NCBI GenBank assembly: GCA_043800555.1
Contig: JAZDMX010000003.1
Span: forward strand, 240,033 to 304,032
Direction of reading: 5' to 3'
Length of the DNA stretch: 64,000 nt
DNA from: Candidatus Omnitrophota bacterium
GTDB lineage: Bacteria; Omnitrophota; Gorgyraeia; Gygaellales; Profunditerraquicolaceae
Shown: positions 739 through 64,000 of the stretch, one piece after another
Numbering within the stretch: position 1 is the first letter of the stretch
Layout: the number at the start of each line of letters is the position of its first letter
Position numbers and translations under genes: made by a program
Notes under the pieces: generated by a model
Seen by the model: the letters and a program-made list of their open reading frames with translations, nothing else
The model's database searches: none
What the model was told of the DNA's origin: nothing

Positions 739-837
739 CGAAAATGGGGACGCGAAAATGGGGACGTTTCTACTTTTCTAGAAGCTAAGGCCGGAAAAGT
801 AGAAACGTCCCCATTTTCGCCAACGTCCCCATTTTCG
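739..837. repeat. long palindromic intergenic repeat, copy A (left arm carries a 14-nt tandem duplication CGAAAATGGGGACG x2, mirrored on the right arm)
   Basis: Near-perfect inverted repeat: ...GGGGACGTTTCTACTTTTC, 15-nt loop TAGAAGCTAAGGCCG, then GAAAAGTAGAAACGTCCCC...; the same arms recur at 5726, 46516 and 63891. Confidence 0.85.
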
Positions 838-1880: not shown

Positions 1881-2408
1881 ATGGGGAAAATAGCCCCCGA
1901 TAAACCCGTTAAGCTTATTATCGGTTTTATTTTTGGCGAAAAGGCATTCTTTGAGAAGGCAAAACTTGATCTAACCAGGCATTTCGGAAGGATTGACTTT
2001 GAAAGCGGGCCAATGCCTTTTACCGTGACCGGATATTACCGGGAAGAATTTGGCGAGGGCCTTTCAAGGGTATTCGTAAGTTTTTCCAAGTTCATCAAGC
2101 CGCAGCAAATTTCCGGCATAAAAATCCTCACTAATAAGATTGAAAAGAAGCTGACAAGAGAGTCAAAGCGCTTGGTTAATATTGATCCGGGTTACCTTGA
2201 TTTGGCTAAGCTTGTTTTGGCTTCGACCAAGGATTATGTCCACCGCATATATTTGAATAAAGGGATATTCGCCGAGATAACTTTGTTTTATCAGGATAAA
2301 AGTTTTCAGGATTGGAAGTGGACTTATCCTGATTTCCGGAGTAAAGAGTATATCGCGATGTTTAACCAGATCAGGAAATTATATGCAGAGCAGGCCCGGA
2401 AAGAATAA
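1881..2408 (+). CDS. DUF4416 family protein
   Basis: 175 aa; sequence pattern recalled for DUF4416; 26-nt overlap with the downstream radical SAM gene. Confidence 0.55.
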   Translation: MGKIAPDKPVKLIIGFIFGEKAFFEKAKLDLTRHFGRIDFESGPMPFTVTGYYREEFGEGLSRVFVSFSKFIKPQQISGIKILTNKIEKKLTRESKRLVNIDPGYLDLAKLVLASTKDYVHRIYLNKGIFAEITLFYQDKSFQDWKWTYPDFRSKEYIAMFNQIRKLYAEQARKE

Positions 2409-3369
2409 GCCGGTTTATTTAGAGTCATTTCAAAACGGCTTGCTTGATGAGGTGGCCGGAAGGCTTTTTGGTTCTTTAGAGTCTTGCGCGATCTGCCCCC
2501 GGAAATGCAAGGTAAACCGGCTAAACGGCGAAAAAGGTTTTTGCGGTTCAGGCTTAAAGCCTAAGGTGTACAGCTATATGGCGCATCACGGAGAGGAGCC
2601 GGCTATTTCAGGCTCGCGCGGTTCAGGCACAATATTTTTCTCGAATTGCAATATGGGTTGCGTATATTGCCAGAACTATGAATTCAGCCAAAATGGCTCC
2701 GGCAGGGAAGTCAGCTTTGAAGAGTTAGCCGGATTTATGCTGGAGTTGCAAGGCATGGGCTGCCACAATATTAATTTAGTTACGCCGACACATCTCCTGC
2801 CGCAAATCCTTAAGGCGTTAAGGATCGCTATTAGCGCCGGCCTGGATATCCCGTTAGTTTATAATACCGGCGGATACGAATCAGCCGGGATAATAAAATT
2901 ATTGAGGGGGATTATCGATATCTATTTACCGGATATGCGCTATGCCGGAGCAAGGCAGGCGATTGAGTTTTCCGGCGCGCCGGATTATCCGGAAAACAAC
3001 CGGGAATCCGTAAAAGAAATGTTTTGCCAGGCGGGGATAGCCAAAATGGATGGATCCGGAATAATTGAACGCGGCATAATCATAAGGCACCTTGTTTTGC
3101 CAGGCGGGGTTAGCGGGACAGAGGAAATCATGGAATTCATTTCTAAAGAGATTTCTTGCGAAACTTACGTAAGCTTGATGAGCCAGTATTTGCCGTATCA
3201 TAAAGCGGCGGAATTCAAAGGGATAAACCGCAGGTTAAAGTTTGGCGAATATAAAGAGGCGCAAAGGGCCATGGAAAAATACGGCTTGTATAACGGCTGG
3301 GTTCAGGAGTCATTCGGTTTGGAAAGGTTTGCGGGAGTAAACATAAAATCAGTGCTTAAAGATGAATAA
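2383..3369 (+). CDS. radical SAM protein, PflX-like (COG1313 family)
   Basis: 328 aa; N-terminal Cys cluster CAICPRKCKVNR...GFCG followed by the radical SAM motif CNMGCVYCQN. Confidence 0.8.
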   Translation: MQSRPGKNKPVYLESFQNGLLDEVAGRLFGSLESCAICPRKCKVNRLNGEKGFCGSGLKPKVYSYMAHHGEEPAISGSRGSGTIFFSNCNMGCVYCQNYEFSQNGSGREVSFEELAGFMLELQGMGCHNINLVTPTHLLPQILKALRIAISAGLDIPLVYNTGGYESAGIIKLLRGIIDIYLPDMRYAGARQAIEFSGAPDYPENNRESVKEMFCQAGIAKMDGSGIIERGIIIRHLVLPGGVSGTEEIMEFISKEISCETYVSLMSQYLPYHKAAEFKGINRRLKFGEYKEAQRAMEKYGLYNGWVQESFGLERFAGVNIKSVLKDE

Positions 3370-3883
3370 GGCGGATTTTCTTGGCAAGCTGTCAAAGGTA
3401 AAAGGCCTTTTATACCAGAAGCTTTTTAATATTAACGATACCGAGCAAAAAGTGGCCCTGGGTTTCGGCATAGGGGTATTTACCGGGATTTTACCGGGGG
3501 CCGGTCCTCTGGCAGCTTTGTTTTTGGCGGTACTTTTTAAGGTTAACCGTGCCAGCGCCCTTATCGGCAGCATCCTTACCAACACTTGGCTTAGCCTGGT
3601 AACTTTTCTCTTGGCAATCAAAATCGGTTCTGTTATATTTAGGGTTAGCTGGCAAGGCCTTAGAAGCGAATGGGCCTTTATCGCAAAGAACCCGGCTGGG
3701 AAGGATTTATTCACTATGCCTGTCTTGAAAGTTGCCCTCCCGGTGATAACCGGGTATTTTGTAATTTCTTTGTGTTTGGGCGGAATTTCTTATTTAATCG
3801 CGTTGATCGCGCTAAAAAACAGGCGCGCTGCCTGGCGCACGGGGATAACCGGTTCGCCGTATCCATGGCGCAAAAGGATTTAA
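3362..3883 (+). CDS. DUF2062 family membrane protein
   Basis: 173 aa; multiple TM helices; GILPGAGP motif typical of DUF2062. Confidence 0.6.
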   Translation: MNKADFLGKLSKVKGLLYQKLFNINDTEQKVALGFGIGVFTGILPGAGPLAALFLAVLFKVNRASALIGSILTNTWLSLVTFLLAIKIGSVIFRVSWQGLRSEWAFIAKNPAGKDLFTMPVLKVALPVITGYFVISLCLGGISYLIALIALKNRRAAWRTGITGSPYPWRKRI

Positions 3884-5490: not shown

Positions 5491-5515
5491 CAGGCGTAGC
5501 AAAAAAGGAGGCAAT

Positions 5516-5680
5516 GTGGCGTATCAAAGTGGTGGTGGATTTGGTGGTGGGCCAAGGGAAATGCACAAAGCAACTTGTTCGGAATGTAAAAAGGAGTGCG
5601 AAGTCCCTTTTAAGCCCAGGGAAGACCGTCCGATATACTGCAAGGAATGTTATTCCAAGCGTAAGAACGAAGGACGTTAA
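5516..5680 (+). CDS. small Gly-rich zinc-ribbon protein (CxxC-x17-CxxC)
   Basis: RBS AAGGAGG at 5505-5511 then a GTG start; an in-frame TTG at 5480 is an alternative start. Confidence 0.5.
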   Translation: MAYQSGGGFGGGPREMHKATCSECKKECEVPFKPREDRPIYCKECYSKRKNEGR

Positions 5681-5725
5681 AGTATCAAAGTTAACTGTTG
5701 CCAGCCCCGCCTTCGGCGGGGCGGT

Positions 5726-5813
5726 AAAAACGGGGACGTTTCTAGCAAAAAACGGGGACGTTTCTGCTTTTCCGGCTTTAGGTCCTGGAAAAGTAGAAAC
5801 GTCCCCTTTTTTT
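5726..5813. repeat. palindromic intergenic repeat, copy B (partial left-arm duplication; ends in T7)
   Basis: AAAAACGGGGACGTTTCTAG + AAAAAACGGGGACGTTTCTGCTTTTCC, loop GGCTTTAGGTCCT, GGAAAAGTAGAAACGTCCCCTTTTTTT; preceded by a GC hairpin at 5704-5723. Confidence 0.85.
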
Positions 5814-5833
5814 GCGCAAGGCTTAATTTTAGA

Positions 5834-5861
5834 TTGACAAACTAGAAAATTGTGTTAGAAT
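5834..5861 (+). promoter_or_regulatory. sigmaA-type promoter of the hrcA operon (TTGACA-16nt-TAGAAT with TGn extension)
   Basis: TTGACA 5834-5839; TGTGTTAGAAT 5851-5861. Confidence 0.6.
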
Positions 5862-5867
5862 TTCACT

Positions 5868-5894
5868 TTAGCATTCTTAAGGTGAGAGTGCTAA
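5868..5894 (+). promoter_or_regulatory. CIRCE operator (HrcA binding site)
   Basis: TTAGCATTC-N9-GAGTGCTAA versus consensus TTAGCACTC-N9-GAGTGCTAA; located between the promoter and hrcA. Confidence 0.85.
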
Positions 5895-5913
5895 TACGAG
5901 AAAAGGTGTTTCT

Positions 5914-6654
5914 ATGGTAAAGAATGTTGAGCGTCAAGCCAGGAAAAGAGCGGTTCTATCTACTACTATTAACAAGTATATCCTGGAAGCTTGCCCTATT
6001 GCTTCCGAAGAGTTAGCCGAGCATTTTGATTTAAGTTCAGCTACCATAAGGAATATATTTAGCGAGTTGGAAGACGAAGGATACTTGACGCATCTTTATA
6101 CTTCAGGCGGAAGGGTCCCTACTGAAAAGGGTTACCGTTATTACGTTGATTCGCTTTTGCTGCAGATGCAGCTTATAGATGAGGAGAAGGAAAGGATCCT
6201 TTGGGAATACGAAAAAGAAGTTAAGTGCATGGAAGATGTTTTGGAAGAGACTTCCAGGTTGATTGAGCAGACAACGCATTATACCGGCATTGTTTCGCTT
6301 CTAGAGTGGCAGGACAAGATGTTTTATAAGGGGCTGAACCGGATACTGGAGCAGCCGGAATTCAAAGATGCCGATAAAATGCGGATGTTGATTAAGGCGG
6401 TTGAAGATAAGCGGCGCCTGTTAGAAGTTATCAACCGTGAACTGCCGGATGGGGCAAGGGTTTACATCGGTAGTGAACTGAACTGCCCCGAAATGGAAAA
6501 TTGCTCTTTGGTTGTTTCTAGTTATTGCCGTAAGAATAAACCCCAGGGCAGGCTGGCAGTCTTGGGCCCGGTGCGCATGGAATACCGGCGGATTATACCG
6601 ACTTTGGAATATATCTCGGGTGTATTAAGCGAAACTCTGGAGAATTTTGATTAA
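5914..6654 (+). CDS. hrcA: heat-inducible transcription repressor HrcA (short form, 246 aa)
   Basis: SSATIRN, GRVPTEKGYRYYVD, QPEF and EMENCSL motifs shared with B. subtilis HrcA; lacks about 90 aa of the central region. Confidence 0.85.
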   Translation: MVKNVERQARKRAVLSTTINKYILEACPIASEELAEHFDLSSATIRNIFSELEDEGYLTHLYTSGGRVPTEKGYRYYVDSLLLQMQLIDEEKERILWEYEKEVKCMEDVLEETSRLIEQTTHYTGIVSLLEWQDKMFYKGLNRILEQPEFKDADKMRMLIKAVEDKRRLLEVINRELPDGARVYIGSELNCPEMENCSLVVSSYCRKNKPQGRLAVLGPVRMEYRRIIPTLEYISGVLSETLENFD

Positions 6655-29406: not shown

Positions 29407-29478
29407 GGGCCTATAGCTCAGCGGTAGAGCAGGAGACTCATAATCTCTTGGTCGGAGGTCCGAATCCTTCTGGGCCCA
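29407..29478 (+). tRNA. tRNA with anticodon CAU; overall similarity to E. coli ileX (tRNA-Ile2, lysidine) suggests Ile2 rather than elongator Met
   Basis: Cloverleaf: acceptor GGGCCTA/TGGGCCC, anticodon loop CTCATAA, T-loop TCCGAAT; no encoded CCA. Confidence 0.85.
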
Positions 29479-29562: not shown

Positions 29563-29636
29563 CGGGCATTTAGCTCAGCTGGTTAGAGCGCCACATTCAC
29601 ATTGTGGAGGCCAGAGGTTCAAGTCCTCTAATGCCC
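29563..29636 (+). tRNA. tRNA-Val (anticodon CAC)
   Basis: Acceptor GGGCATT/AATGCCC, anticodon stem-loop CCACA-TTCACAT-TGTGG, T-loop TTCAAGT. Confidence 0.85.
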
Positions 29637-29739
29637 ATTTCTCAAACAAGGCCGGGTATAATTTCTGCCGCAGGCTCTTTATAAGGGCCGGCTGCGGATG
29701 AGTTTAGGGCGCCAACTAATATAGCGGAAGGAGAAAAAA

Positions 29740-30917: not shown

Positions 30918-30963
30918 AATAAGGGCCAGGCCCCGTATATGGGCTGTCGGGGATTTTTTACAG

Positions 30964-31456
30964 GGCAGGCGGAATGTGGTCGCCCGTTATTGAATAAATG
31001 GCGGGAGGAAAGTCCGGGCTCCGGAGGACAGCGTAGTAGGCTAACCCCTACCCTTCGGTAAACTTACCGAAGAGGATTATCCCTTGGCGTTGGCTTGAGA
31101 AAGCCGCGGCAGGGGGTCATTGCCTGAAGACGTAAGCCTAAGGCGATGAGAGCCACAGAGACGAGGATCGTTGGTGCCGCTGATTTTGTTTTGCTGGTAG
31201 CGTTGGTTTACCGGCGCGATTCAGTTTTTAATCAGCGGGATCAGCGGGGAGTGAAACGAGGCAATCTCTGCGCGGAGCAAGGCGAATAGGAGATGATCTG
31301 TCATTAATTTGGCAGAACGCGTTTGTCCGGCGCGTTATTAAATCTCGGGTATTAAGCTGCTTGAGCTTTGACGGCAACGTTAAGGTCGAGAGGAATGATC
31401 ACTAATCGGCGCGAAGAAATCGCACCAAGACAGAACCCGGCTTATTTCGCCTGCCC
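30964..31456 (+). ncRNA. rnpB: RNase P RNA (rnpB), bacterial type A with extra insertions (about 490 nt)
   Basis: P4 GGAAAGTCCGGGCTCC at 31007-31022; GGAGCAAGGCGAATAGG; GCTTGAGC; 3' ACAGAACCCGGCTTA; P1 pairing GGGCAGGCG/CGCCTGCCC. Confidence 0.8.
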
Positions 31457-31559
31457 ATTTAAATGTTGGAATAATCAGAGGCCGGTAGCTTATGGCCTTA
31501 TAGCCAGTAGCCGGAATTATAACCGGCTACCGGCTAAGTATCGTTAAAGGAGGAAACAA

Positions 31560-46100: not shown

Positions 46101-46512
46101 CCAGCCCCGCGGGATTAATCAGCATTTTATTGGTTAAATTATAGCCGAGATTGCTGAAGCCGTTATGAAAAGGCTCATAAAAAACGGTTTTATTCCGGGA
46201 TGTTATCTTGATAAAAGTGCGGAATCCCTGGGTGCTTACAAGCTGCCAGGCCTTATTTGCCGGGAGGAATTCCAATATGGGATGGTCTTTATCTTTAACC
46301 CCGAAACTTGAAATGGCCTGGCCCCGGTTGACATAAAAAGTCCACATCGGGATTCCATATCTACCGGCTATCCCGGGGAAGAAATTGGAGAAGGGCTTGG
46401 AGTAGTTATAGTTTTCTATAACAAACTCTCCGGTTTCATTCAAATAATATTTGGGTACCTTATTTTGCGCCTTCATAACAGGGTATTCTACCTGATTTAA
46501 GCCTTTTGTCAA
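43168..46512 (-). CDS. large (1114 aa) glycoside hydrolase/phosphorylase candidate of the (alpha/alpha)6-barrel, GH94-like clan; the size is compatible with GH161/GH149-type beta-1,3-glucan phosphorylases
   Basis: Uninterrupted 1114-aa ORF. GNYRDLNQN resembles the GH94 G(F)RDSNQD catalytic region, and W..HWHYNLDLL resembles the downstream WNDCLN region. The family assignment is tentative. Confidence 0.55.
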   Translation of the reverse strand: MTKGLNQVEYPVMKAQNKVPKYYLNETGEFVIENYNYSKPFSNFFPGIAGRYGIPMWTFYVNRGQAISSFGVKDKDHPILEFLPANKAWQLVSTQGFRTFIKITSRNKTVFYEPFHNGFSNLGYNLTNKMLINPAGLALEETNLSLGLRVKVGYFNIPCDNYAGLARILRIENTGSKDKSIELIDGLPQIASFGTNNFFLKKMSRTIEAWIGVENIKNKAPFYRLKVDPVDRPEVIHINEGNFYLGFSLEGEKAKLAPPIVDPENVFGEIVDFSCPVNFIKNKRLKISAEVNSKTPCAFSFASLKLKKKEEKTFYSVIGYMRNLETLNESIPKIISSGYLKGKNEENTRLIRKLADDIHTASGSKKFDLYCRQTYLDNLMRGGYPFIFSGRQSKAPDSASLDAQESGSGKTTFHLYSRKHGDPERDYNRFQLAPTYFSQGNGNYRDLNQNRRNDIWFNPEIKEENLASLINLIQLDGFNPLIVKGSSFAIKDKETLKAKLEGICLKKNKERIISFLSKPFSPGEVIHFIEDNQIKLRIPYDELLDLIIAGSFKISEAEHGEGFWTDHWHYNLDLLSSYLEVYPEKLKQIVFCDRIFTFFDNSEVVKARNEKYLLYNGKPRQLHSVACDNAKKEMLHKRKAPAHLVRIMPGQTQIYQTSLINKLLCLFGNKFASLDPFGIGVEMEADKPNWFDSLNGLPALFGSSLCETFELKRLALFIKDAINQTGIEKLAVTEEILKLLTELNRLTLDYFDNKADDYAWWDESHSLKEDYRSLTKMGVGGIELDVPAPEITGIIDTALKKIDLGILKAKDTRENVYCGYFINEVTRYESADNHFIKPTEFKQSGLPLFLEAQVHALRLADSQSHARKIHEGTRKCELFDKKLKMYKVTAALAGMPEEIGRCRVFTPGWLENESIWIHMEYKYILELLKAGLYKEFYEDFKNCLIPFQEPQRYGRSILENSSFLVSSAFPDKKLHGNGFVARLSGSTAEFLEIWLKINAGMNPFFIKDGKLALKFEPKLAGWLFDKKGDYTFNFLSKIKVTYHNPRRKDTFESSPGPNSAGKQCRAQGKGPAKITQIILGGQEGPVEINSPVINSPYAEKVRARQFEKIDIYLE

Positions 46513-46515
46513 AGG

Positions 46516-46581
46516 AAAAAGGGGGACGTTTCTACTTTTCCCGCGGCTAAAGCTAGAAAAGTAGAAACGTCCCCATTTTTT
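46516..46581. repeat. palindromic intergenic repeat, copy C (simplest form: A5-stem-loop-stem-T6)
   Basis: AAAAAGGGGGACGTTTCTACTTTTCC, loop CGCGGCTAAAGCTA, GAAAAGTAGAAACGTCCCCATTTTTT. Confidence 0.85.
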
Positions 46582-46601: not shown

Positions 46602-46633
46602 TTGACTTTTGGGCCGGGGAATGTTACTATATT
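46602..46633 (+). promoter_or_regulatory. promoter candidate for gatCAB (TTGACT ... TACTAT/TATATT)
   Basis: TTGACT 46602-46607; TACTAT 46625-46630 (17-nt spacer). Confidence 0.35.
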
Positions 46634-61226: not shown

Positions 61227-61303
61227 GCCGGAGTAGCTCAGCCTGATAGAGCACGCGGCTCATACCCGCTTGGTCGGAGGTTTAAATCCTCTCTCCGGCA
61301 CCA
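61227..61303 (+). tRNA. tRNA with anticodon CAU (probably elongator Met; anticodon loop CTCATAC), with the 3' CCA encoded
   Basis: Acceptor GCCGGAG/CTCCGGC-A-CCA; D-loop AGCCTGATA; unusual T-loop TTTAAAT. Confidence 0.85.
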
Positions 61304-63843: not shown

Positions 63844-63890
63844 AGCCTTAATTTACTATCCTAAGGCCCAAAAGTCAATCTTAAAGTAGG

Positions 63891-64000
63891 AAAAAGGGGG
63901 ACGGAAAAAGGGGGACGTTTCTACTTTTCCCGCGCTAAAGCCAGAAAAGAAAAAGGGGGACGTTTCTACTTTTCCCGCGCTAAAGCCAGAAAAGTAGAAA
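63891..64000. repeat. palindromic repeat, copy D: tandemly expanded (left arm + loop repeated twice), truncated by the window end
   Basis: AAAAAGGGGGACG | GAAAAAGGGGGACGTTTCTACTTTTCC-CGCGCTAAAGCCA-GAAAAG | AAAAAGGGGGACGTTTCTACTTTTCC-CGCGCTAAAGCCA-GAAAAGTAGAAA... Confidence 0.85.

What the first reader, a model, noticed from the sequence alone, without database searches (positions are those of the whole stretch)
739..837. Family of long palindromic intergenic repeats (at least 4 copies in 64 kb) with conserved 25-nt arms and a variable 13-15-nt loop
There are four copies, at 739-837, 5726-5813, 46516-46581 and 63891-64000+. They share the arm AAAAA(G/C/T)GGGGACGTTTCTACTTTTC(C) and its exact reverse complement GAAAAGTAGAAACGTCCCCATTTT. 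The arms are separated by loops containing GCTAAAGC or its inverse. Loop polarity shows copy B is inverted relative to C and D. The structure of an A-run, a perfect stem and a T-run looks like a bidirectional intrinsic terminator. Copies A and C, however, sit in divergent promoter regions rather than at gene 3' ends. This pattern suggests a MITE/REP-like mobile or recombinogenic element, or a structured RNA or protein-binding site. The repeats are not CRISPR and not IS-associated, and the family may be lineage-specific.
Basis: seen in the sequence. Interest (0 to 1): 0.7.

Follow-up and report, generated by a model that had tools for sequence, protein, structure and literature searches.

The report
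REPIN-like repeats of a tyrosine transposase
The four long intergenic palindromes are real. They are gene-less miniature copies of the inverted ends that flank a domesticated "RAYT-like" tyrosine transposase gene in related bacteria, so they belong to a known kind of small mobile repeat, seen here in a little-studied phylum (Omnitrophota).

Summary
Four copies lie at 739-837, 5726-5813, 46515-46581 and 63890-64000 (cut by the window end). The 19-nt arm occurs 8 times against 0.02 expected.

The window is from a Candidatus Omnitrophota MAG. Each arm is X-GGGGACGTTTC-X'. The same 11-nt core, paired as a palindrome, occurs in more than 112 loci across several phyla, with lineage-specific flanks.

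The only recurrent neighbouring gene is a Y1 HUH transposase with motifs NHVH, WQ and YIELNP. That places it in TnpAY1 subclass 2.1, also called Group 1 RAYT or "TIRYT". In 54 of 66 assessable metagenome loci this gene is bracketed by inverted copies of the core: one about 70-120 bp upstream, the other at or overlapping the stop codon. Clostridial relatives only 35% identical show the same bracket.

The window copies are therefore left end, 13-15 nt spacer, right end: REPIN-like doublets.

The site of copy C is empty in three syntenic relatives. In a fourth relative a different family variant fills it, which argues for mobility.

Di Nocera et al. (2013) described such TIR families (motif GGGGWSAS), so this is a new member of a known kind. 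The cognate gene of this genome was not seen. Mobilisation by that enzyme and any terminator or insulator role are inferred.

The parts
739..837 (.). Copy A. Outer half-unit 739-752 (CGAAAATGGGGACG), left arm 753-778, loop 779-793, right arm 794-819, spacer CCAA, outer half-unit 824-837.
   Evidence: inverted repeat I5: 27-nt arms, 100% complementary. It lies between divergent promoters: minus strand 717-690 and plus strand 866-894. The neighbouring genes are an unknown 162-aa ORF and a PilZ-domain gene.
5726..5813 (.). Copy B, with its loop inverted relative to A, C and D. Extra unit 5726-5746, left arm 5747-5773 (one mismatch, TGC for TAC), loop 5774-5786, right arm 5787-5813.
   Evidence: I6. 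It lies after the zinc-ribbon gene 5519-5680 and that gene's GC hairpin at 5703-5725. It ends 20 nt upstream of the -35 box of the hrcA-grpE-dnaK promoter at 5834-5861.
46515..46581 (.). Copy C, the plain doublet. Left arm 46515-46540, loop 46541-46555, right arm 46556-46581.
   Evidence: I15. It starts 2 nt from the -35 hexamer (46512-46507) of the minus-strand promoter of the 1102-aa gene. It ends 20 nt before the gatCAB promoter at 46602-46630. The orthologous site is empty in L203, L204 and L205.
63890..64000 (.). Copy D, cut by the window end. Half-unit 63890-63903, 45-nt unit (X-core-X'-loop-X) 63904-63948, a second identical unit 63949-63993, then the start of the right arm 63994-64000.
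   Evidence: direct repeat D1: two 45-nt copies, 100% identical. It starts 11 nt from the -35 box (63878) of the flippase gene promoter.

Best explanation
The four palindromes are non-autonomous, REPIN-like doublets. Each is the left and the right terminal inverted repeat of a 'TIRtron' joined by a 13-15 nt spacer in place of the gene. A TIRtron is a single-copy gene for a RAYT-like Y1 HUH tyrosine transposase (TnpAY1 subclass 2.1, Group 1 RAYT, TIRYT) together with its flanking repeats.

The repeat unit is X-GGGGACGNTTC-X'. The 11-nt core is conserved across phyla. The 6-9 nt flanks are lineage-specific and mutually complementary.

Inferred mechanism, by homology with E. coli TnpA-REP and IS200/IS605 enzymes: the Y1 enzyme, encoded elsewhere in the genome, recognises the core in folded single-stranded DNA. 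It cuts and rejoins that DNA, which copies or moves the doublet without a target-site duplication. Survivors accumulate where they do no harm, in intergenic DNA just outside promoters or after genes.

The long hairpin with A and T runs probably also stops transcription in both directions. That would be a by-product or a secondary benefit, not the reason the family exists.

Shown: the repeat family, its anatomy, its link to the Y1 gene in relatives, and an empty versus filled site.

Inferred: mobilisation by the Y1 enzyme, the single-stranded substrate, and any terminator or insulator role.
For: Repeat and origin:
- The repeat is real and far above chance.
- The window is from an Omnitrophota MAG.
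- The doublet pattern is found in more than 112 loci. By my count of the record titles these are 57 Bacillota, 22 Omnitrophota, 14 Aminicenantes, 11 'Planctomycetales', 4 Actinomycetota, 1 Parcubacteria and 3 unclassified.

Link to the gene:
- Among 1913 ORFs near those loci, the one mobile-element-type family found beside the repeats (in 3 loci; a few housekeeping families recur more often) is a Y1_Tnp protein. Its Pfam PF01797 hit has E 1.7e-18.
- The only sequence relative with a solved structure is E. coli TnpA-REP, 4ER8.
- Its motifs NHVH, WQ and YIELNP match subclass 2.1 in Quentin 2018 (PMC6006769).
- In 6 of 6 fetched assemblies and 54 of 66 assessable metagenome loci, the gene has a plus-strand core within 40-170 bp (mostly 70-120 bp) upstream and a minus-strand core at -15 to +60 bp from the stop, mostly 0-27 bp.
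- Core variants (T, G or C at position 8) mostly match between the two ends.
- Clostridial 309-aa relatives, 35% identical, are bracketed the same way by GGGGAC[A/G]NTTCTCAA.
- In MAG CAWDSS01 the gene and 10 doublets with the same arms sit in one genome, 7 of them within 24 kb of the gene.

Mobility:
- The gatC / 1102-aa-gene intergenic region is 111-112 bp and empty in L203, L204 and L205. It is 181 bp with copy C in the window, and 222 bp with a different variant (GGGGACACTTTCC) in L206.
- Loops are homologous between copies and occur in both orientations.
- No target-site duplication is visible.

Unit structure:
- Same-arm X:X' complementarity is 4.65 contiguous pairs against 2.67 +/- 0.12 when permuted.
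- The covariation score is 0.374 against 0.183 shuffled (0 of 500 shuffles reach it) and is best in the chosen register.

Prior description of this kind: Di Nocera 2013 (PMC3733652).
Against: - No Y1 gene lies in the 64-kb window (tblastn). The rest of this MAG could not be reached, so a cognate enzyme in this genome is assumed, not shown.
- No enzyme of subclass 2.1 has been tested biochemically, as far as the papers read here say.
- Quentin 2018 found no REP-like sequence near subclass 2.1 genes. Bertels 2017 linked only Groups 2 and 3 to REPINs.
- The single-arm hairpin of the window's own copies is not stable: -1.3 to -2.7 kcal/mol as DNA, no better than shuffles. The X/X' relation may instead reflect two half-sites on duplex DNA.
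- Mobility rests on one orthologous site. Loss by precise deletion cannot be excluded.
- 12 of 66 homologue loci lack the bracket at the thresholds used.
Confidence: 0.75

Rival explanations
1. They are host-encoded bidirectional intrinsic terminators or transcriptional insulators, fixed at these sites. Their similarity would reflect selection for one efficient hairpin design.
For: - Each is a perfect 25-27 bp stem flanked by an A run and a T run, so either strand gives a hairpin followed by a U run.
- Copy B follows a gene whose own GC hairpin lacks a T run.
- Across 91 classifiable loci elsewhere, 54 lie between tandem genes and 27 between convergent genes. Only 10 lie between divergent genes.
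Against: - Copies A and C lie between divergent promoters, and copy D lies upstream of a promoter, where no transcript needs to end.
- The site of copy C is empty in three syntenic relatives.
- Terminators do not share an 11-nt core across phyla, and they do not bracket a transposase gene.
- Loops of 13-15 nt and stems over 20 bp fall outside the usual terminator design, and the scan did not call them.
Confidence: 0.1
2. They are operator or binding sites for a transcription factor or nucleoid protein that co-regulates the adjacent promoters as a regulon.
For: - All four copies end 2-28 nt upstream of a -35 hexamer.
- They carry repeated half-units, like iterons.
- The inverted X/X' flanks could be dimer half-sites.
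Against: - The neighbouring genes are functionally unrelated: PilZ, hrcA-dnaK, gatCAB and a flippase.
- hrcA already has its own CIRCE operator.
- The gatCAB promoter of close relatives works without the site.
- Elsewhere most copies lie after genes.
- The motif tracks a transposase gene, not a regulator.
Confidence: 0.05
3. They are MITEs derived from a classical (DDE) insertion sequence, or genes for a structured small RNA.
For: They have terminal inverted repeats, are short and occur in several copies. The fold is very stable.
Against: - No target-site duplication is present at A, B or C.
- No DDE transposase recurs near the copies.
- The ends match those of a Y1 gene.
- There is no Rfam hit.
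- A perfect palindrome with equal sequence on both strands and no promoter of its own is not what small-RNA genes look like.
Confidence: 0.04

Closest known systems
TIR repeat families of 'TIRtrons' / TIRYT genes (Di Nocera, De Gregorio and Rocco 2013, PMC3733652). These correspond to TnpAY1 subclass 2.1 (Quentin 2018) and Group 1 RAYT (Bertels 2017).
   Same: - A RAYT-like Y1 gene is flanked by inverted repeats at fixed distances, one overlapping the 3' end of the gene.
- The repeats begin with a GGGG motif: published GGGGWSAS, here GGGGACGN. L206 and the Clostridial relatives have GGGGACAS.
- Copies are dispersed in the genome as singles, dimers and clusters.
- The protein motifs are NHVH, WQ and YIELNP.
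   Different: - The host phylum (Omnitrophota) is not in the published sets.
- The core reads G, not A, at position 7.
- The published work gives an 8-nt motif. It does not report the 11-nt core shared across phyla, the complementary flanks, or an empty-site comparison.
- Quentin 2018 reported no REP-like sequences for this subclass.
REPIN-RAYT systems (Bertels and Rainey 2011, PMC3116915) and E. coli REP/BIME with TnpA-REP (Messing 2012, PMC3479197; Corneloup 2021, PMC8266576).
   Same: - Two inverted repeat units separated by a short spacer form a long hairpin.
- The copies are intergenic and dispersed.
- The cognate gene is a single-copy Y1 HUH gene bracketed by the same repeats.
- There is no target-site duplication.
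- The only solved structure related by sequence is TnpA-REP, 4ER8.
   Different: - There is no conserved GT[AG]G tetranucleotide at the foot of the hairpin. GTAG in the window's arm is ATAG, ACAG, GGAG or AAAG in relatives.
- The conserved element is an 11-nt core inside the arm.
- The protein belongs to a different RAYT group. It scores 63 bits against the NCBIfam REP_Tyr_transpos cut-off of 80.
IS200/IS605 insertion sequences (for example IS608).
   Same: They use the same kind of catalytic domain (Y1 HUH, Pfam PF01797). Their ends carry secondary structure, and they leave no target duplication.
   Different: - IS200 ends are hairpins in the same orientation on one strand, not inverted repeats.
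- The Tyr motif is Y...Q there and YIELNP here.
- IS200 genes are multi-copy and often sit next to tnpB. Here the gene is mostly single-copy, and it is the ends that multiply.
CGTC-tagged REPs (Di Nocera 2013).
   Same: The core contains CGTC (GAAACGTCCCC). The units form head-to-head dimers and occur in many phyla.
   Different: CGTC REPs are a CGTC tag followed by an 8-9 bp stem, a 4-5 nt loop and a CCA tail, with no associated transposase. Here CGTC lies inside an 11-nt core and a transposase gene is associated.
Rho-independent bidirectional terminators.
   Same: Both are a hairpin flanked by an A run and a T run.
   Different: - The stem is 25-27 bp and the loop 13-15 nt.
- The sequence is shared between sites and between phyla.
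- Half of the window's copies are not at gene 3' ends.
- The element is absent from the orthologous site in relatives.

Membership tests
TIRtron / TIRYT repeat family (TnpAY1 subclass 2.1, Group 1 RAYT) | The associated protein is a Y1 HUH enzyme with the subclass 2.1 motifs (NHVH or NH[YF]H; W[EQ]; YIELNP or Y[IV]HLNP). | tested here: met
   In alignment A1, H60 and H62 are invariant, and the consensus reads NHxH (NHVH in the query), HLWQ and YIELNP. Pfam Y1_Tnp hits at E 1.7e-18. The motif table is from PMC6006769. This was tested on relatives' proteins, not on a protein of the window.
TIRtron / TIRYT repeat family (TnpAY1 subclass 2.1, Group 1 RAYT) | The gene is bracketed by terminal inverted repeats of the same sequence as the dispersed repeats. 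| tested here: met
   Met in 54 of 66 assessable metagenome loci and in L113-L118. In MAG CAWDSS01 the gene and 10 doublets sit in one genome. Clostridial relatives L199-L202 show the same bracket.
TIRtron / TIRYT repeat family (TnpAY1 subclass 2.1, Group 1 RAYT) | The repeats carry the published motif GGGGWSAS. | tested here: inconclusive
   The window core GGGGACGT fits 6 of 8 positions (G for A at position 7, T for S at position 8). L206 (GGGGACAC) and L200/L201 (GGGGACAG) fit fully. The published sequences in Figure 9 could not be read.
TIRtron / TIRYT repeat family (TnpAY1 subclass 2.1, Group 1 RAYT) | A cognate Y1 gene is present in the same genome as the repeats. | not testable with these tools
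   No Y1 gene lies in the 64-kb window. The remaining 240 kb of the contig and the rest of the MAG could not be fetched.
Canonical REP / REPIN (RAYT Groups 2 and 3) | A conserved 5' GT[AG]G tetranucleotide sits at the foot of the REP hairpin. | tested here: not met
   The window arm reads AAAAGTAGAAACG, but the same position is ATAG, ACAG, GGAG or AAAG in relatives. The conserved part is GGGGACGNTTC.
Canonical REP / REPIN (RAYT Groups 2 and 3) | Two inverted units separated by a short spacer fold into one long hairpin. | tested here: met
   Copy C folds at -26.1 kcal/mol as DNA, z -7.8.
Canonical REP / REPIN (RAYT Groups 2 and 3) | The protein reaches the curated score for REP-associated tyrosine transposase. 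| tested here: not met
   NCBIfam NF047646 gives 63.0 and 53.8 bits against a cut-off of 80.
Mobile element (any) | Presence/absence polymorphism at orthologous sites. | tested here: met
   One site was tested. It is empty in L203, L204 and L205, filled in the window, and filled by another variant in L206. The other three copies were not tested.
IS200/IS605 insertion sequence | A multi-copy transposase gene with a Y...Q motif, tnpB nearby, and end hairpins in the same orientation. | tested here: not met
   The Tyr motif is YIELNP. Most protein clusters are seen on 1 contig. The ends are inverted. No tnpB-like neighbour recurs.
DDE-type MITE | A target-site duplication flanks the terminal inverted repeats. 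| tested here: not met
   The flanks are ATGTTT / CCTCCG (A), GGCGGT / GCGCAA (B) and CAAAGG / CGTCTT (C).
Intrinsic terminator | It lies at the 3' end of a transcription unit and transcripts end there. | tested here: inconclusive
   By position, only copy B lies after a gene. A, C and D lie upstream of promoters. Whether transcripts end there cannot be tested with these tools.

The most novel reading that the evidence does not exclude
Group 1 RAYT / subclass 2.1 Y1 enzymes were reported by two large surveys to lack REP-type partners. They may in fact run a REPIN-like system across many bacterial phyla. Its recognition element would be one nearly invariant 11-nt core, GGGGAC[G/A]NTTC, held between co-varying complementary flanks, like the conserved loop of a Rep-type nicking origin. 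It would persist in streamlined genomes such as Omnitrophota and sometimes insert in frame inside genes such as gatA. If so, the core would be the nick or recognition site of an untested branch of HUH enzymes.
Probability: 0.3. Interest if true: 0.6.

Novelty: new member of a known kind. Interest (0 to 1): 0.45.

Why it matters
- It places a conspicuous unannotated repeat of an uncultivated phylum into a known mechanism class: RAYT-type domesticated transposases and their miniature repeats.
- It shows that the largest and least understood RAYT group (Group 1, subclass 2.1) does have cognate repeats with a core conserved across phyla. That gives biochemists a defined substrate to test.
- For annotation, these elements create spurious ORFs (5514-5837) and can be mistaken for terminators or operators.
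- For genome evolution, they are candidate markers of insertion and loss, and possible insulators between closely packed promoters.

Tried and rejected
- Rfam, at gathering thresholds, on the window and on five related loci: no family covers the repeats.
- Literature search for the core as a string: only unrelated primers.
- Literature search for Omnitrophota together with RAYT or REPIN: nothing.
- parS, CIRCE, LexA and other operator consensus sequences, Tn3-family 38-bp ends, integron attC and CRISPR repeats: considered from memory and rejected, because the sequences do not match or a defining feature (gene association, target duplication, array structure) is absent.
- CGTC-tagged REPs: the architecture differs.
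- A conserved neighbouring gene other than the Y1 gene: none among 1913 ORFs.
- Phage carriage: 0 hits in the viral contigs.
- Fetching the rest of the window's contig: both look-ups failed.
- A nick at GGGGACG^TTTC, suggested by the 14-nt half-units of copies A and D: dropped. Partial units in other lineages usually include the whole core, and the filled-site junction does not fit.
- A stable single-arm hairpin in the window's own copies: not supported by energy.

Full report
**1. Observation.**
The 19-nt arm GGGGACGTTTCTACTTTTC, with up to 3 mismatches, occurs 8 times, all in these loci, against 0.02 expected. The exact 11-nt core GGGGACGTTTC occurs 9 times, again only there. Arms are 25-29 nt and 93-100% complementary. 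The loops (13-15 nt) are homologous between copies, and copy B is inverted relative to A, C and D. As RNA the complete copies fold at -40 to -75 kcal/mol, z -7.6 to -12.4. As DNA copy C folds at -26 kcal/mol.

Copy A carries an outer 14-nt half-unit on each side. Copy B carries an extra 21-nt unit. Copy D, cut by the window end, carries a half-unit and a tandem 45-nt duplication. No Rfam family matches.

**2. Where the window comes from, and the setting of the copies.**
Ten window proteins are identical to NCBI proteins of one Candidatus Omnitrophota MAG, on a 304,210-bp contig.

- Copy A lies between two divergent promoter-like sites scoring 11 of 12, next to a PilZ gene.
- Copy B lies after a small zinc-ribbon gene (5519-5680) and 20 nt before the promoter and CIRCE operator of hrcA-grpE-dnaK-dnaJ.
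- Copy C lies 2 nt from the -35 hexamer of a 1102-aa gene and 20 nt from the gatCAB promoter.
- Copy D lies 11 nt from the -35 hexamer of a flippase gene.

The neighbouring genes have nothing in common. Only copy B is at a gene's 3' end.

**3. The same core elsewhere.**
I scanned one genome per species for GGGACGTTTCT-N15-45-AGAAACGTCCC. My rough estimate of the chance expectation is about 2 hits. By my count of the record titles these are 57 Bacillota, 22 Omnitrophota, 14 Aminicenantes, 11 labelled Planctomycetales, 4 Actinomycetota, 1 Parcubacteria and 3 unclassified. The few Actinomycetota and Parcubacteria hits could be chance.

Reading the matches shows a common plan: X, GGGGACGTTTCT, X', loop, X, AGAAACGTCCCC, X'. 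X is 6-9 nt and lineage-specific: GAAAAT here, GGGACA, GTGCAA, GAGACA, GGCCAG and others elsewhere. Extra X-core units are often stacked outside. The flank before the core is complementary to the flank after it on the same arm, which the long palindrome does not require. The longest contiguous match averages 4.65 against 2.67 +/- 0.12 when partners are permuted between lineages. On a gap-free alignment of 103 distinct arms the covariation score is 0.374 against 0.183 for shuffles (0 of 500 reach it), and it is highest in the chosen register. In the window's own copies this single-arm hairpin is not stable. So the relation may reflect a hairpin that presents the core in its loop, or two inverted half-sites on duplex DNA. 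I cannot tell which.

**4. The associated gene.**
I clustered 1913 ORFs from the 112 loci. Apart from a few housekeeping families that recur by chance, the one mobile-element-type family next to the repeats, found in 3 loci, was a Y1 HUH transposase. It matches Pfam Y1_Tnp at E 1.7e-18. It scores 63 bits against NCBIfam 'REP-associated tyrosine transposase', below the cut-off of 80. It has 2942 relatives, mostly about 225 aa, single-contig and from Omnitrophota.

In every one of six fetched assemblies the gene is bracketed by the core: X-GGGGACG[T/G/C]TTC-X' upstream, and the reverse complement at or overlapping the stop codon. A metagenome scan for relatives gave 80 loci. Of the 66 with both flanks readable, 54 have both cores in that arrangement. 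The variable core position mostly matches between the two ends.

Clostridial relatives are 309 aa, 35% identical, and some sources name them 'REP element-mobilizing transposase RayT'. They are bracketed in the same way by GGGGAC[A/G]NTTCTCAA, with further copies nearby. In MAG CAWDSS01 the gene and ten doublets with the same arms are in one genome. The window itself has no such gene, and I could not reach the rest of its assembly.

**5. Mobility.**
The gatCAB operon and the 1102-aa gene are divergent neighbours in four relatives whose 1102-aa protein is 72-77% identical. The intergenic region is 111-112 bp with no repeat in L203, L204 and L205. It is 181 bp in the window, the difference being copy C. 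It is 222 bp in L206, where a different variant of the family (core GGGGACACTTTCC, with an extra half-unit) sits a few bases away. The flanks align on both sides of the gap.

Two independent insertions is the simplest reading, because the two elements differ in core and flanks. No target duplication is visible at A, B or C. Closely related strains also differ in the number of tandem units (L200 against L201, L123 against L125). Across the other loci, 54 copies lie between tandem genes, 27 between convergent genes and 10 between divergent genes. That is the pattern published for REPs.

**6. Mechanism.**
- Shown: the window's palindromes are the two ends of this gene's flanks joined without the gene.
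- From established knowledge: Y1 HUH enzymes (IS608 TnpA, E. coli TnpA-REP) bind folded single-stranded DNA and cut and rejoin it through a tyrosine. They leave no target duplication (PMC3479197, PMC8266576, PMC6006769). The only sequence-related solved structure is TnpA-REP.
- Inferred: the enzyme of this genome recognises the conserved core and mobilises the doublets in trans. The hairpin with U runs also terminates or insulates transcription.

I considered a nick at GGGGACG^TTTC, suggested by the half-units, and dropped it.

**7. Comparison with what is known.**
The protein motifs NHVH, WQ and YIELNP place it in TnpAY1 subclass 2.1, which is Bertels' Group 1. Di Nocera et al. 2013 called such genes TIRYT. 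They described their flanking inverted repeats, many sharing GGGGWSAS, and found moderately abundant families of these repeats arranged as singles, dimers and clusters. The present family fits that description. Its core differs from the published motif at position 7, while L206 and the Clostridial copies fit it exactly.

It is not a canonical REP or REPIN. There is no conserved GT[AG]G, and the protein falls below the curated RAYT score. Quentin 2018 reported no REP-like sequence for subclass 2.1. Bertels 2017 linked only Groups 2 and 3 to REPINs, giving Group 1 flanking 16-mers about 12 copies. No paper in the library links Omnitrophota with RAYT or REPIN.

**8. Verdict.**
This is a real repeat family, explained as a new member, in a new phylum, of a known kind. 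What goes beyond the literature I could read is:
- the 11-nt core shared across phyla;
- the complementary flanks;
- the regularity of the bracket in Omnitrophota;
- the empty-site evidence.

The main gap is that the cognate gene in this genome was not seen and no enzyme of this subclass has been tested.

Noticed in passing
window 5869-5895: A CIRCE-type operator (TTAGCATTC-N9-GAGTGCTAA) lies between the promoter at 5834-5861 and hrcA (5914-6654), followed by grpE, dnaK and dnaJ. This is the classical HrcA heat-shock arrangement, in an Omnitrophota genome.
   Followed up: partly
window 5514-5837: The 107-aa ORF listed here is spurious. It reads through a terminator-like hairpin and through copy B. 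The real gene is a small CxxC...CxxC zinc-ribbon protein in another frame, 5519-5680.
   Followed up: yes
L206 3290-3345 (inside gatA, 2034-3488 minus strand): Tandem GGGGACTGTCCCC units, a self-complementary variant of the same core, lie inside gatA. They add about 10 amino acids in frame at a variable loop of GatA (484 aa against 473-477 in relatives). This is an intragenic insertion like the published intragenic REPs and RPEs.
   Followed up: partly
L206 3852-3945, compared with window 46515-46581: The same gatC / 1102-aa-gene intergenic site is occupied in a relative by a different variant of the family (core GGGGACACTTTCC, plus a half-unit). This suggests repeated colonisation of a permissive spot between two -35 boxes.
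   Followed up: partly
L200 15760-15870 against L201 15771-15900; L123 against L125 upstream of the Y1 gene: Near-identical strains or metagenome contigs differ by one tandem repeat unit (3 against 4, and 2 against 3). The arrays therefore change by slippage on short time scales.
   Followed up: no
L102 4100-4145; L038 7528-7565; many of L119-L198: A conserved leader lies between the left repeat and the start codon of the Y1 gene: the motif AGTTAGATT, then a hairpin (ccctcttccac...gtggaaggggg) that covers the ribosome-binding site. It may control translation of the transposase.
   Followed up: no
window 46476-46512 (minus strand): The 1102-aa gene (named cellobiose phosphorylase by NCBI, with no Pfam hit) starts 8 nt after its -10 hexamer, so its mRNA is probably leaderless. 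The same spacing is kept in relatives L203-L206.
   Followed up: no
window 30963-31460; 29407-29478; 29564-29637; 61227-61300: RNase P RNA (bacterial class A, 134.9 bits) and three tRNA genes.
   Followed up: no
L082, L059, L084, L074, L076, L079 (positions): Several doublets in other genomes fall inside very long ORFs by a naive ORF call. They may be further in-frame intragenic insertions.
   Followed up: no
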